Below are positions 12,475-18,274 of a stretch of 34,265 bases of DNA, piece by piece (positions within the stretch are counted from its first letter, which is position 1; each line of letters starts with the position of its first letter). Source of the stretch: Magnetococcales bacterium (lineage in GTDB: Bacteria; Pseudomonadota; Magnetococcia; Magnetococcales; JADGCH01). Where the stretch lies: assembly GCA_015228995.1 (NCBI GenBank), contig JADGCM010000003.1, positions 1 through 34,265 on the forward strand. Reading direction: 5' to 3'. The notes under the pieces were generated by a model. The model was not told the DNA's origin and searched no databases. It saw nothing but the letters and a program-made list of their open reading frames with translations. Position numbers and translations under genes: made by a program.

Positions 12475-12921
12475 TTAAGCCACTTCATGTTCCTCCTCTC
12501 CCCTTGCGGGAGAGGAGGTTGGGGGGTGAGGGGGAAATATACCCATGGCCAGTGACATGGGTATATTGGGACTCAGTGGGTTGGTTCGGACCCGCATCTG
12601 GACCGGCTCAATCACCAAGTCCATGTCTTCCATCGGAATTGCTCCCAGCAGTACTTGGTCGCCGAAAACCAGAGCCCCGGTCACACATTGACGCCCTAGT
12701 AGAGCGATTTTGACCGGAGCCATGTAGGGGATCAGGTGTAATTGACCATCCGCAGTTTTAATCTCACGTCTCCCCATTTCGGTCAACTGCAGCTGGATGG
12801 CAACATGTTGCGGAATGCACAGATGCAAGGCACCGGTATCTACGAGAGCATTAGCGTCAATCTCTTCCAGGTCAGGCCTAGCATAGTTGGCCAATCGAAG
12901 CGGTGTATAGATAATTCCCAT
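12475..12921 (-). CDS. Clan AA (retropepsin-like) aspartic protease, AF_0612-like, with a repeat-derived C-terminal tail
   Basis: ALVDTGALHLCIP, TADG and VLLGAIPMEDMDLVI motifs; likely start MGIIYT at 12921; the tail PPHPPTSSPARGEEEHEVA is encoded by hairpin repeat copy A. Confidence 0.85.
   Translation of the reverse strand: MGIIYTPLRLANYARPDLEEIDANALVDTGALHLCIPQHVAIQLQLTEMGRREIKTADGQLHLIPYMAPVKIALLGRQCVTGALVFGDQVLLGAIPMEDMDLVIEPVQMRVRTNPLSPNIPMSLAMGIFPPHPPTSSPARGEEEHEVA
12479..12531 (-). repeat. Dispersed hairpin repeat, copy A
   Basis: Perfect 11-bp stem cctcctctccc/gggagaggagg (12492-12502 with 12508-12518); 44/53 ungapped identity to copy C. Confidence 0.85.
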
Positions 12922-14635: not shown

Positions 14636-14679
14636 GCCTCTTCACCCTCTCTCCTTGTGGGAGAGGGCAGAGTGAGGAG
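14636..14679 (-). repeat. Dispersed hairpin repeat, copy B (shorter variant)
   Basis: Minus strand reads ctcctcactctgccctctcccacaaggagagagggtgaagaggc: same cctcac head, ccctctc/gagaggg stem and tgaagNggc tail as copies A and C. Confidence 0.7.
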
Positions 14680-14715
14680 TGCGAAAGACTTAATCACATA
14701 CCTGGTTGATAAATT

Positions 14716-15321
14716 ATGAAATTTCGTCGCTGCCCAACTTGTGTCCACGCGGCTGTGTGGAGTGATTTTTTCTTCACCTTGGCCCAGGCGCTGTTTCAAA
14801 CCGCCATCGCCTTTGTTTCCGGCAGCATGGCTTTACATGCCCAGGGCATTTACTCCTTTGCTGATTTTACCACCAAAGGGATCAATTTGGTCAGCGTTAA
14901 AATGGCGGCGCGGTTCCCGCAACTCCCCTTTATATCGGCGGCTCTGATCGGTCTTTGCCTAATAGGGGGAGCCTCGTTATTCCTGATCCATAATTTTCAG
15001 GTTGCTAGCAGCGAACCCAGCCATATTCCCAATTTATTGGCATTTTTTGGTTCCCTATTATCTGCGTTGGCCAGCGAATTGATGTTTCGTTATCTGGCCT
15101 GTGTGGGGCAAGAAAATAGCTACCCTGCCATCACGGCAGCCGCTTGGGACAACCGGATGGACGCCCTGTCTTCTCTGGCAGTCTTTGTTGGTGTGCTGGC
15201 TGCCTATCTGGGTTGGCCGGCGGCTGACCACTGGGTCGCGGTTGCGGTCGCCTTGTTGGTGGTTTGGGTTGGCGGCAAAATTGTGGTTGACGCACTGCAA
15301 CATCTGCTAGATGTGTGGTAG
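14716..15321 (+). CDS. MamB-like cation diffusion facilitator, transmembrane domain only (no C-terminal cytoplasmic domain)
   Basis: MKFRRCPTC (C6xxC9), SGSMAL...YSFAD and ELMFRYLACVGQENSYPAITAAAWDNRMDALSS closely track magnetosome MamB as recalled (MKFENCRDC...ELMYRYQICVGNENNSPAIIANAWDNRSDAISS); the ORF stops just after the last TM (LLDVW*). Confidence 0.8.
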   Translation: MKFRRCPTCVHAAVWSDFFFTLAQALFQTAIAFVSGSMALHAQGIYSFADFTTKGINLVSVKMAARFPQLPFISAALIGLCLIGGASLFLIHNFQVASSEPSHIPNLLAFFGSLLSALASELMFRYLACVGQENSYPAITAAAWDNRMDALSSLAVFVGVLAAYLGWPAADHWVAVAVALLVVWVGGKIVVDALQHLLDVW

Positions 15322-15343
15322 AATAGGGACTTTTTATATGTAT

Positions 15344-17128
15344 CCGACATTCCGCAGTTGTTTTGTAGTTTTTTTGATTTTACGTTCTGCTGCCCCTCCC
15401 ATGTTCTACGATGAAGTCGTATTGTTTTACACGGTATCTGTGTAAACAAGATTGACGAGGTGGTGATGAGCATTCAAGTGAACCAAGTAAAGGCGTTGAT
15501 TCTTGATCATTTTGGTTTGGTGTCTGCTGTGGCAACGGACTTGGGTATTGTGGGCATGATTGATGCGCGGCTTCCAACGACAGATCGTTCTCATGCAACC
15601 ATGGGGCAACGGACGTTGGCCATGATTTTGAATGGACTTGGTTTTTTGAATGATCGGCTCTATATGGTGCCGAGGTTTTTTCAGAACAAGCCGCTGGAAC
15701 GTCTTATTGGGCCTGGTGTTAAGGCTGAACATTTGAATGACGACGCACTGGGCCGGTTACTGGATAGCGTTGCTGAATATGGAACGACGAAGCTGTTCGG
15801 TGAGATTGCATTCGAGATTGGAAGTAAACAGGGGTTGATAGGACGATCAGCCCACTTAGACACAACTAGTTTAATGGTTGTCACCCATGGTTACTCGAAG
15901 GATTACAGGAATGACCTGAAGCAGGTTGTTTTGTCGTTGACGACGACTGGGCCTGCTGGTTTTCCGATCTGGTTCGAAGCCTTGGCCGGTAATAGCAGTG
16001 ATAAGGTCTCCTTCCATGAGACACGAGACCGGGCAACAGAATTTCAGAAGCAGTTGTCAGCGAGTCATTTTCTGTATTGGGTAGCGGATTCATGTTTATA
16101 CACTGTTGGTAAACTGTTGTCTGTAACCGATACAATGTGGATACCAGGGTTCCTGACACGGTGGGTGATGCAAAAGCACTGACCATGATGCCACGGGAAC
16201 AGTTTGAGTGGCAGGAGATCGGCAACGGTTACCAGATAGCGGGAATTGGAAGCAACCATGGTGGTTTACGACAGCGGTGGTTGCTGGTCTATTCTGAACA
16301 GGCCGCCAAAAGGGAGACAGAAACATTCAATAAAAGCCTTGAGAAGATTGATGAGAAGCTCAAGAAGGACGTGTGGCATTTGGAGAATCAGTTATTTACG
16401 GAAGAGTCCTGTGCTGATAAGGCATGCCATGAGTTCAGCAAGAAACTACGCTGTCATCATGCAGAGTATACGGTTACAGCTGTGTTCAAGCACACCCAGC
16501 GCGGTCGTCCGAAAGCTGGTCAGCAAGCTGCTGATATTCGGATATGCGGTAAAGGTGGCATGGTCACGTCATGATGCTGCCATAGACGCCGAACTGAGGA
16601 GTAAGGGCCGTTTTGTTTTGGCGACGAATCAGCTAGATCATGATGAGCTGAGTGATTTGGAGTTTTTTCAGGAATACAAGGACCAGAGCCAAGTGGAGGG
16701 AGGGTTTCGATTCCTCAAGGACCCGTGGTTCATGGTAGACTCCATATTCTTGAAGACTCCAAAACGGATTGAAGCGTTGATGATGATCATGACCCTGTGT
16801 CTGATGGTTTACAACGTTGGCCAGTATCAGTTGCGAGAAAAGCTTTCTGCACAAGGTGGCTTCCTTCCCAACCAAGTTGGTAAACAAGTTCAGAACCCCA
16901 CCTTGCGTTGGGTTTTCAGAGTCATGGAGGGGATAACAATAGCCCGTGTGATGCTTGGTGGAACGATCAACGAGACTGTCCAAGAGATCGTGTGTAATGT
17001 GGATGATTTGCACGAAAAGATCATCCGCTATTTTGGCAAGCATGCCATGAGTATTTATGGTGTGACTTGAATGTTATAGCCTGTTCGTGAAAATGAAAAA
17101 AATGGCGTCAACAACTGCGGAATGTCGG
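15344..17128 (+). mobile_element. IS1634-family insertion sequence (1785 bp)
   Basis: Perfect 19-bp TIRs ccgacattccgcagttgtt (15344-15362) / aacaactgcggaatgtcgg (17110-17128); 6-bp TSD ATGTAT at 15338-15343 and 17129-17134. Confidence 0.92.
15460..17070 (+). pseudogene. IS1634-family DDE transposase, frameshifted into three ORFs
   Basis: DHFGLV, LNDDALGRLLD, HLDTTS, HGYSKDYRNDLKQ, GNSSDK, ADSCLY (ORF1); TRVP, QRWLLVYS, RGRPK (ORF2); GRFVLATN, YKDQSQVEGGFRFLKDP, PKRIEAL, PTLRWVF (ORF3). Frameshifts near 16140 and 16540. Confidence 0.9.
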
Positions 17129-18274
17129 ATGTATGGGCGCTTTCTGTCTTTTCTGGGCACACGGATCAACATTCGGGTCACGTTCATCCTGATCGGTGTT
17201 GTGGTGCTGTTACAGATGGCCTTGGCCACCTATGCTTAGCTGGTCGACAGCGGATGTTACTGCAAAAGGCCGCTAAAGAGTTTTTTATCCTCATGGATGG
17301 CCAGAGTTTGCTGGTGGAGTCAACCCGTCGCCAACTCGACACCACGATATGGGGCTTCGATGCCACACTGGAAGCGTTAATCAATGGTGGTTTGGCACCA
17401 GAACGTCTGGACAAACAATCGGCTATGGTGGTTGTGGTGACGCCACTGCCTCATGTGAAGGTGCAGTTGCTACAAATCCAAACCGGTTGGCGCCCTTTAC
17501 GTGATGCGCTGCAATTGGCGCTGGAGGAAAATGCTTGGCAACGGCTATCACAAGAGACGAGAAAGCGGGTTGCCCACGACAGCACACAATTGCTGGAAGC
17601 TATGGATCGTGCCACCACCATGATCGGTCAAGTTTCCAGAGAACAGATCCAATTCGTGCATACCGGATTGACTCGCAGTGCGATTGGCAGCGTCGTTTTT
17701 GCTGTCAGTTTGCTGCTGTTTTGGGTGTGGCGTTACGTAACGTTGGTGGGGCAATTACACCGTTTTGGCGATCATTTGGTAGCGCTGGAGCAGGGCAAAT
17801 TGCTCTATCGTAGCCACGGCGACACTTTTGTGTCGGAGCTGGCTTTTTTTGGTGAGCGCATCAATGCGACAAGCGATGCGGCAGCTAGCGAATGTGGGCG
17901 ATCCTCCTTTTGATGTACGTGCTATCAAACAGGCCCACATGAAATGGTTGGGACGGTTGGAGCATGTGGTGCGCGGTCGAGCTCGCTTGCGTCCGGAGGA
18001 GGTGGCCAGTGGCCATGAGTGTGCCTTTGGCAAGTGGTACGATAGCGCTGGCAGCGAAATATTCGGTCAGTTGCCCCTCTTCCAAGAGATGGGCATTGCC
18101 CACATGGCCGTTCATGAAAAGGCGCGCGCCATCGTTGTACTGGTTGCCAACGGAGAAACTGAAGCGGCGGTTGCGGCCATGGATCAATTTGACCTCTTGC
18201 GGCGCGAACTGTTCACTTATCTAGATGCCCTATATGTTGACCCGGATCAGAGGCGGCAGCTACCAACCAACTAA
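17129..18274 (+). pseudogene. Decayed chemoreceptor-like gene: TM, PilJ/NarX-like sensor, TM, HAMP-like, CZB domain; no MCP signalling domain
   Basis: ATG at 17129 gives MYGRF...VTFILIGVVVLLQMALATYA* (TM1, TAG at 17237-17239); a second frame gives LAGRQRMLLQK (PilJ-like motif) and TM2; a third frame gives AHMKW...HECAFGKWY...AHMAVHE (CZB zinc ligands). Confidence 0.7.

What the first reader, a model, noticed from the sequence alone, without database searches (positions are those of the whole stretch)
14716..15321. Orphan MamB-like CDF with no cytoplasmic domain and a hybrid MamB/MamM metal site
Seen: a 201-aa CDF with C6xxC9, Y46-x3-D50, C129 and D145-x3-D149, ending right after the last TM, with no other mam gene in the window. 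Recalled knowledge: MamB has C6/C9/C138 and transport site H46-D50/D154-D158, while MamM has Y46-D50/H155-D159; both carry a C-terminal domain and lie in the magnetosome gene cluster. This protein is in register with MamB to residue 50, is about 9 aa shorter across the usual PFGYG loop, and has a Y-D/D-D site. The neighbouring IS has an intact TSD and the stop codon lies upstream of it, so the IS did not remove the C-terminal domain. Inference: an extra-island magnetosome-type CDF paralogue, either a new CTD-less subfamily (metal transporter or heterodimer modulator of MamB/MamM) or a decaying duplicate.
Basis: partly seen in the sequence, partly recalled or inferred. Interest (0 to 1): 0.78.

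Follow-up and report, generated by a model that had tools for sequence, protein, structure and literature searches.

The report
Truncated MamV-like metal transporter relic
This short gene is a cut-down copy of an accessory magnetosome-type metal transporter that is full length in every relative found, and it sits in a small stretch of decaying genes, so it is more likely a young gene remnant than a new kind of transporter.

Summary
It is a CDF membrane domain (Pfam 94 bits) of the MamB/MamV branch, not FieF/CzcD. It is not a MamB/MamM hybrid or a new subfamily. It belongs to a well-supported sister clade of MamB whose nearest members score best on NCBIfam MamV, and Tyr46 is normal there: 11 of 12 rows. 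All 44 aligned relatives keep the loop motif and 70-143 residues after the last helix. Only this copy lacks 9 loop residues and the whole C-terminal domain. No remnant of that domain is in the 69%-complete assembly. The host carries mamK-M-N-O-P-A-Q-B-S-T on another contig. A 96%-complete genome of the same genus has no orthologue. The gene next door is an IS-hit chemoreceptor with two internal deletions relative to an intact 800-aa orthologue. The other 27 window ORFs scanned gave no sign of breakage (22 of 27 with Pfam hits). Best reading: a young deletion relic (0.6). A working domain-less transporter is not excluded (about 0.25), because the remaining sequence is well conserved.

The parts
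14716..15321 (+). 201-aa ORF: membrane domain only of a MamV-like (MamB-branch) CDF transporter
14731..14742 (+). N-terminal CxxC (C6, C9)
   Evidence: Conserved in MamB and in the paralogue clade.
14851..14865 (+). TM2 half of the transport site, Y46-x3-D50
14917..14922 (+). junction (P68/Q69) of the in-frame 9-codon deletion that removed the conserved loop motif (F/H-x-Y/F-G-x-G)
   Evidence: 44 of 44 relatives have the motif
15148..15162 (+). TM5 half of the transport site, D145-x3-D149
15313..15321 (+). end of homology with relatives (..LLDV), one Trp codon, then the TAG stop. The C-terminal domain coding DNA is absent, not merely interrupted.
15342..17130 (+). IS1634-family insertion sequence with 21-nt perfect inverted repeats. 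The transposase is split into three frames (15460-16182, 16137-16574, 16246-17070).
17129..18274 (+). remnant of a PilJ-MCP-CZB chemoreceptor. The IS sits at its start codon. About 49 nt are missing near 17221-17239, and about 404 codons (the signalling domain) are missing at 17865/17866.
14636..14685 (.). short repeated palindromic element in the region upstream of the ORF, with many copies in the sister genome

Best explanation
The ORF is a young deletion relic of an accessory MamV-like CDF transporter. Its ancestors were ordinary two-domain CDFs of a clade sister to MamB. In that clade the transport-site His46 is replaced by Tyr, and the gene is normally followed by a small CZB (zinc-binding sensor domain) gene. 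In this lineage one in-frame 27-nt deletion removed the conserved TM2-TM3 loop motif. A second deletion removed the whole C-terminal domain and whatever lay between it and the next gene, a chemoreceptor. That chemoreceptor then lost its signalling domain and was hit by an IS. Shown: both losses, the uniqueness of this form, the clade placement and the decay of the neighbour. Inferred: the product no longer works as a transporter and the ORF is still open only because the damage is recent.
For: 1) Uniqueness. All 44 aligned relatives (30 paralogue-clade rows, 13 MamB, own MamM) have the loop motif and 70-143 residues after the LLD motif; this protein has 2. A search of 1.84 billion representatives gave full-length nearest relatives: 272, 312, 309, 329 and 321 aa. 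Its 90% cluster has 1 member on 1 contig.
2) No C-terminal-domain remnant. tblastn with four relatives over the whole assembly hit only MamB and MamM. The ZT_dimer profile found 2 domains, in MamM and MamB, against 3 Cation_efflux domains.
3) Dispensable in the genus. The 96%-complete congener G001 has only MamB, MamM and two generic CDFs.
4) Local decay. The next gene is an MCP remnant, compared with an intact 800-aa PilJ-MCPsignal-CZB orthologue in G001. The IS transposase is in three frames. The other 27 window ORFs scanned outside this 3.6-kb stretch showed no split genes: 22 gave Pfam hits, 5 gave none, and the first ORF starts inside its domain.
5) The missing parts matter. [quoted passage not shown] Another states that IL1 is the dimer interface of E. 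coli YiiP and holds residues critical for transport in OsMTP8.1 (PMC4995437, discussion passage).
6) No sigma-70-like promoter on the + strand upstream. This is weak evidence.
Against: The 201 codons are uninterrupted. All transport-site residues and the three Cys are kept. The copy has changed less than its full-length sister P0002 since they split: 10 against 21 lineage-specific substitutions, with 124 identical and 31 ambiguous columns, and only 1 hit on a column at least 80% conserved. Its end branch is 0.23 against 0.45. Both deletions are tidy: one is in frame and the other falls exactly at the domain boundary. AlphaFold2 still gives a confident six-helix bundle (pLDDT 93.5) with a 6-residue TM2-TM3 loop, though such a model says little about stability. 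CDFs without the C-terminal domain exist elsewhere (P0101 and P0124; a reference in PMC4995437 titled as a CDF lacking the cytoplasmic domain). Against giving conservation much weight: the undoubted MCP pseudogene next door also keeps 69-78% amino-acid identity and pN far below pS against G001.
Confidence: 0.6

Rival explanations
1. It is a working transporter or partner subunit without a C-terminal domain. The six-helix domain alone either moves metal through the Y46-D50/D145-D149 site or pairs with MamB or MamM in the membrane and alters their activity.
For: The ORF is intact, with site residues and Cys kept. It evolves more slowly than its full-length sister. The model is confident and matches the YiiP membrane domain with TM-score 0.84. 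Natural CDFs without the domain exist (reference list of PMC4995437). MamB and MamM are reported to form heterodimers (PMC10470508, passage).
Against: No second example of this form was found in the 55 other class genomes or in 1.84 billion representatives. The invariant loop motif is lost, and the position of its Lys/Arg now holds Gln. The neighbouring gene is dead and an IS sits in the locus. The sister species has no such gene. The small CZB partner gene seen beside 5 of the 5 relatives whose downstream DNA is held is absent here.
Confidence: 0.25
2. It is an assembly artefact. The metagenome-assembled contig joins or collapses reads wrongly, and the real gene is full length.
For: The genome is a 287-contig, 69%-complete assembly. 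The IS is multi-copy and breaks other contigs. No read set could be found to check it.
Against: The stop lies 20 nt before the IS, and the flanks fit a simple insertion. Two separate losses would be needed within one gene, plus two more in the neighbour. The other 27 window ORFs scanned showed no split genes, 22 of them with Pfam hits. No orphan C-terminal domain lies elsewhere in the assembly.
Confidence: 0.07
3. It is a recent duplicate of the host's own mamB or mamM, or a generic FieF/CzcD-type efflux pump.
For: It shares the CxxC, C138-equivalent and D-D motifs with MamB and Tyr46 with MamM.
Against: It is only 34% identical to the host MamB and 24% to MamM. In the careful tree it lies inside a 27-row clade (100/99) that is sister to MamB (100/98) and apart from MamM-like and generic CDF rows. 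NCBIfam gives FieF 24 bits against MamB 190 and MamV 188.
Confidence: 0.02

Closest known systems
MamV (NCBIfam NF040994; extra CDF gene downstream of mamU in the mamAB operon of Magnetospirillum magneticum AMB-1, of unknown function according to a passage in PMC10470508)
   Same: Of the 7 scanned members of its subclade, 6 score best on the MamV model and P0005 ties with MamB (P0009 414 bits, P0015 322, P0003 300). The ORF itself scores 188 bits over profile positions 1-208 of 319.
   Different: None reaches the 500-bit cut-off. The gene lies outside any mam operon, has no C-terminal domain and has a 9-residue loop deletion. No verified MamV sequence was in the tree, so orthology to MamV is not shown.
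MamB (NCBIfam NF033616)
   Same: It has the N-terminal CxxC, the C138-equivalent Cys, D50 and D-x3-D in TM5, and it belongs to the sister clade. It scores 190 bits on profile positions 1-204 of 284.
   Different: The score is below the 350-bit cut-off. It has Tyr where 13 of 13 MamB rows have His46. It is not in the mamAB operon, lacks the C-terminal domain and is 34% identical to the host's MamB.
'MamB-2' of Candidatus Magnetoovum chiemensis (NCBI name of P0010)
   Same: It falls in the same 27-row paralogue clade, at its base.
   Different: P0010 is 315 aa with H46 and an H-x3-D TM5 site. It passes the MamB cut-off with 424 bits.
YiiP/FieF of E. coli and Shewanella (PDB 2qfi, 3h90, 5vrf, 8f6e)
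   Same: These are the closest solved structures. The family profile matches at E 1e-49, and the model superposes on the YiiP membrane domain with TM-score 0.84.
   Different: Sequence identity is 16-19%. YiiP has the IL1 loop and a C-terminal domain. The single sequence finds no PDB chain by phmmer.
Natural CDFs without a C-terminal domain (MmCDF3 of Maricaulis maris; Russell and Soulimane 2012, seen only as a reference title in PMC4995437)
   Same: Membrane-domain-only architecture.
   Different: They are unrelated in sequence. As recalled, MmCDF3 comes from a lineage where that form is conserved, whereas this protein is alone among full-length relatives.

Membership tests
Cation diffusion facilitator (Pfam PF01545) | Membrane-domain profile match above the gathering score | tested here: met
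   94.3 bits against a cut-off of 26.6, residues 17-198
Cation diffusion facilitator (Pfam PF01545) | Six-helix bundle like YiiP | tested here: met
   AlphaFold2 gives six helices at pLDDT 93.5. Foldseek gives TM-score 0.84 to YiiP 8f6e/5vrf.
Cation diffusion facilitator (Pfam PF01545) | Acidic or His transport site on TM2 and TM5 | tested here: met
   Y46-D50 and D145-D149
Cation diffusion facilitator (Pfam PF01545) | Conserved TM2-TM3 loop motif (F/H-x-Y/F-G-x-G-K/R) | tested here: not met
   There is a 9-residue gap here, while 44 of 44 relatives have the motif.
Cation diffusion facilitator (Pfam PF01545) | Cytoplasmic C-terminal domain (ZT_dimer, PF16916), present in most members | tested here: not met
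   No Pfam hit. Only 2 residues follow the LLD motif. The assembly holds no remnant.
MamB (NF033616 equivalog) | Score at or above the 350-bit cut-off | tested here: not met
   190.4 bits. The host's true MamB scores 355.8.
MamB (NF033616 equivalog) | His46 in the transport site | tested here: not met
   Tyr here, against His in 13 of 13 MamB rows
MamB (NF033616 equivalog) | Falls inside the MamB clade | tested here: not met
   It lies in the sister clade; each of the two clades has 100/99 support.
MamB (NF033616 equivalog) | Located in the mamAB operon between mamQ and mamS | tested here: not met
   It is on contig C42 among unrelated genes. The operon is on C89.
MamV (NF040994 equivalog) | Score at or above the 500-bit cut-off | tested here: not met
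   188.1 bits. The best relative, P0009, scores 414.
MamV (NF040994 equivalog) | Groups with an authentic MamV sequence in a tree | not tested
MamM (NF033615 equivalog) | Score at or above 350 bits, and His in the TM5 site | tested here: not met
   93.9 bits. D145 stands where the host MamM has His.
MamV-like CDF + CZB gene pair (clade defined here) | Small CZB-domain gene directly downstream of a full-length CDF | tested here: not met
   All 5 relatives with downstream DNA held have it. Here the next gene is a broken MCP whose CZB domain is of a different type and has its orthologue elsewhere in G001.

The most novel reading that the evidence does not exclude
The 201-aa protein is a living, naturally minimised MamB-family transporter. 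It has a six-helix core, no regulatory C-terminal domain and a shortened dimer loop. It either moves metal without regulation or inserts into MamB/MamM dimers as a modulating subunit. That would show the core of a magnetosome-type CDF can work alone.
Probability: 0.2. Interest if true: 0.55.

Novelty: new member of a known kind. Interest (0 to 1): 0.25.

Why it matters
As a relic it matters little. It is one more example of deletion-driven gene loss in an uncultured magnetotactic coccus. It also warns that an open, well-conserved ORF can still be a remnant, since the dead chemoreceptor beside it looks equally conserved. The family it came from is more useful. MamB has a well-supported sister clade that is widespread in Magnetococcales: at least 19 of the 55 other class genomes have a member in the tree. 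In that clade the transport-site His is replaced by Tyr, Gln or Leu. My four literature searches that bear on this found no paper describing the clade. One of its branches is tied to a small zinc-binding CZB sensor gene. That pair offers a testable lead on what these extra magnetosome-type transporters carry and how the cell senses it.

Tried and rejected
1) Generic FieF/CzcD: rejected.
2) Recent duplicate of the host's mamB or mamM: rejected at 34% and 24% identity.
3) A split gene with the C-terminal domain encoded elsewhere: not found. The assembly is only 69% complete.
4) The IS removed the domain: rejected for the present IS. An earlier IS-mediated deletion cannot be excluded.
5) Short orthologues: P0013 (207 aa) is a partial gene by NCBI's own label and keeps the loop. 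P0017 and P0025 are fragments or frame-shifted ends.
6) dN/dS against the nearest relative P0002: not possible. Its DNA was not found in genome contigs or metagenome contigs. All other relatives are 53% identical or less, so synonymous sites would be saturated.
7) Sequencing runs: none was listed, so neither the assembly nor expression could be checked. No RNA holder was listed.
8) Earlier findings of this scan: three look-ups returned nothing.
9) Literature: searches for MamB paralogues in Magnetococcales, for mamB-like/mamB2/mamB-II names and for MamV gave no description of this clade. PMC7170241 treats only MamB, MamM and FieF in the passages I read.
10) Promoter and terminator scan: nothing above the shuffled expectation on the + strand.
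11) Complex prediction was not run. A dimer of CDF paralogues would probably pass by likeness to solved YiiP dimers and would tell little.

Full report
OBSERVATION. The ORF 14716..15321 (+) exists as described. It has an ATG start, 201 codons and a TAG stop. A script read C6, C9, Y46, D50, C129, D145 and D149 from the translation. Pfam Cation_efflux matches residues 17-198 to profile positions 4-198 of 198 at 94.3 bits, and no second domain is found. NCBIfam gives MamB 190.4 bits (cut-off 350) on profile positions 1-204 of 284, MamV 188.1 (cut-off 500), MamM 93.9 and FieF 24. Only the membrane half of a MamB-type protein is present.

HOST. The window is the whole of contig C42 of a 1.96-Mb assembly with 287 contigs, 69% complete. 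Contig C89 carries mamK, mamM, mamN, mamO, mamP, mamA, mamQ, mamB, mamS and mamT in one direction. Of these ten, MamK, MamM, MamN, MamA, MamB and MamS exceed their NCBIfam cut-offs, and MamO, MamP, MamQ and MamT fall just below theirs. The host is therefore a magnetotactic bacterium. All 56 genomes of its class, a single order, hold MamB-like genes. The protein of one of them (G007) is identical to a record that NCBI names 'Magnetococcales bacterium'. No other mam paralogue lies in the window.

FAMILY. The ORF is 34% identical to the host's MamB and 24% to its MamM. The careful maximum-likelihood tree has 58 rows. These were picked by hand from the 96 rows of the quick tree, which were themselves limited to proteins of 270-420 aa. 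Support values below are ultrafast bootstrap / SH-aLRT. The ORF pairs with P0002 (100/99). The pair lies in a 12-row subclade (100/96), inside a 27-row paralogue clade (100/99), which is sister to MamB (100/98). MamM-like and generic CDF rows lie outside (the quick 96-row tree agrees).

Six of the 7 scanned subclade members score best on NCBIfam MamV and one, P0005, ties with MamB. The top score is 414 bits, below the 500-bit cut-off. I therefore call the subclade 'MamV-like'. No authentic MamV was in the tree. MamV itself is described as a gene of unknown function downstream of mamU in strain AMB-1 (PMC10470508, passage).

Position 46 is His in 13 of 13 MamB rows. It is Tyr in 11 of 12 rows of the subclade (one Phe). 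In the other 19 paralogue rows it is His in 4, Asn in 1, Leu in 7 and Gln in 7. The 'hybrid' site is thus the norm of the clade and not a peculiarity of this gene.

WHAT IS UNUSUAL. All 44 aligned relatives carry the TM2-TM3 loop motif (F/H-x-Y/F-G-x-G followed by K/R, or N in two MamB rows) and 70-143 residues after the LLD motif. This protein has a 9-residue gap and 2 residues. The search of 1.84 billion representatives gave 158 hits at E of 1e-10 or better, and the nearest are 272-329 aa. The 207-aa P0013 keeps the loop, ends in mid-motif and is labelled 'partial' by NCBI.

In the 55 other class genomes, no listed match above the generic-CDF range has an open frame under 292 aa, except one that starts at a contig edge. 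The congener G001 (96% complete) has no member of the clade. The C-terminal-domain DNA is absent, not just interrupted. Only 20 nt separate the stop from the IS, and past the IS the next gene starts at once. No stray ZT_dimer domain is in the assembly.

LOCUS. The IS (15342-17130) is of the IS1634 family, has perfect 21-nt inverted repeats, and its transposase is in three frames. Its flanks fit a simple insertion at the start codon of the downstream gene. Before the insertion, 16 nt lay between the CDF stop and that ATG.

The downstream gene is the remnant of a chemoreceptor. G001 has an intact 800-aa orthologue with PilJ, MCPsignal and CZB domains. The window copy aligns to it in three pieces (17138-17221, 17239-17866, 17865-18251). 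It lacks about 404 codons, including the signalling domain, and about 49 nt near its 5' end.

The 3.6-kb stretch therefore shows four deletions and one IS. The other 27 window ORFs scanned outside this stretch showed no split genes: 22 gave Pfam matches and 5 gave none, and the first ORF starts inside its POR_N domain at profile position 75. Deletion-driven loss of unneeded genes is the usual fate in bacteria (recalled general knowledge).

SELECTION. DNA of the nearest relative could not be obtained, so no dN/dS is available for this branch. At the protein level the ORF has 10 lineage-specific changes against 21 in P0002, with 124 identical and 31 ambiguous columns. Only one change falls on a column at least 80% conserved.

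This argues against long neutral drift, but it does not show present function. The undoubtedly dead chemoreceptor keeps 69-78% amino-acid identity to G001, with pN 0.12-0.19 against pS 0.52-0.71. The intact neighbour gene has 82% identity. Both genes look like recent casualties.

STRUCTURE. With a 52-row alignment, AlphaFold2 gives six helices (7-35, 38-63, 70-99, 107-134, 137-164, 170-200) at mean pLDDT 93.5. Foldseek puts the model on the YiiP membrane domain with TM-score 0.84. The family profile finds YiiP/FieF at E 1e-49.

The shortened loop can be modelled, which is no evidence that it is stable. [quoted passage not shown] They also report that IL1 is the YiiP dimer interface and carries residues critical for transport in a plant CDF (PMC4995437, discussion passage). 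That a Lys at the start of TM3 locks the YiiP dimer is recalled and was not checked here.

VERDICT. The most likely reading (0.6) is a young, non-functional deletion relic of an accessory MamV-like CDF. A living transporter or partner subunit without the C-terminal domain remains possible (about 0.25). Misassembly is unlikely (0.07) but could not be checked, because no run was listed. The 'new subfamily' reading and the 'hybrid site' reading do not.

BY-PRODUCT. Among relatives of the subclade whose downstream DNA is held, 5 of 5 have a small CZB-domain gene directly after the CDF: G007, G030, G027, G036 and 'Deltaproteobacteria bacterium TL4'. A sixth, G019, runs off its contig. G027, G030 and G036 belong to one family and two genera, so these are fewer than five independent cases. 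The TL4 ORF ends after 65 residues. Another branch of the paralogue clade follows a MamK-like actin gene. A third branch lies 23-28 kb from mamB on the same contig in at least 6 genomes. My searches found no paper describing these.

Noticed in passing
L013 2396-2776; L016 1297-1650; L044 9247-9618; L046 11031-11372; L048 6885-7079: A small CZB (chemoreceptor zinc-binding) gene lies directly downstream of the MamV-like CDF in 5 of the 5 relatives whose downstream DNA is held. This looks like a conserved transporter-sensor gene pair. Three of the five come from one family (two genera), and the TL4 copy ends after 65 residues.
   Followed up: partly
window 17129-18274 vs L063 3292-5697: The chemoreceptor next to the ORF is a pseudogene. 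It lacks about 404 codons (the MCP signalling domain) and about 49 nt relative to the intact 800-aa orthologue of the sister species, and it has an IS at its start codon.
   Followed up: yes
L043 8462-9547 and L045 8798-9841: In G002 and G028 a MamK-like actin gene sits directly upstream of a MamB-paralogue CDF, away from the main mamB.
   Followed up: no
coordinates: G048 C93, G054 C66, G036 C14, G042 C106, G035 C42, G024 C1: One branch of the paralogue clade lies 23-28 kb from mamB on the same contig, so it may belong to the magnetosome gene cluster of those cocci.
   Followed up: no
window 14636-14685 and 12481-12537: A short palindromic repeat element of about 45-55 nt occurs in intergenic DNA, with more than 30 similar copies in the sister genome G001.
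   Followed up: no
G000 contig C27 3959-4780 (-): A 273-aa protein with two tandem CZB domains is related (28-33% identity) to the small CZB partners of the CDF in other genomes. No CDF lies beside it.
   Followed up: partly
window 15460-17070: The IS1634-family transposase is in three reading frames (profile positions 2-223, 241-365 and 345-481 of 483), so this IS copy is probably defective. Related ends, 92-94% identical, occur in G001.
   Followed up: partly
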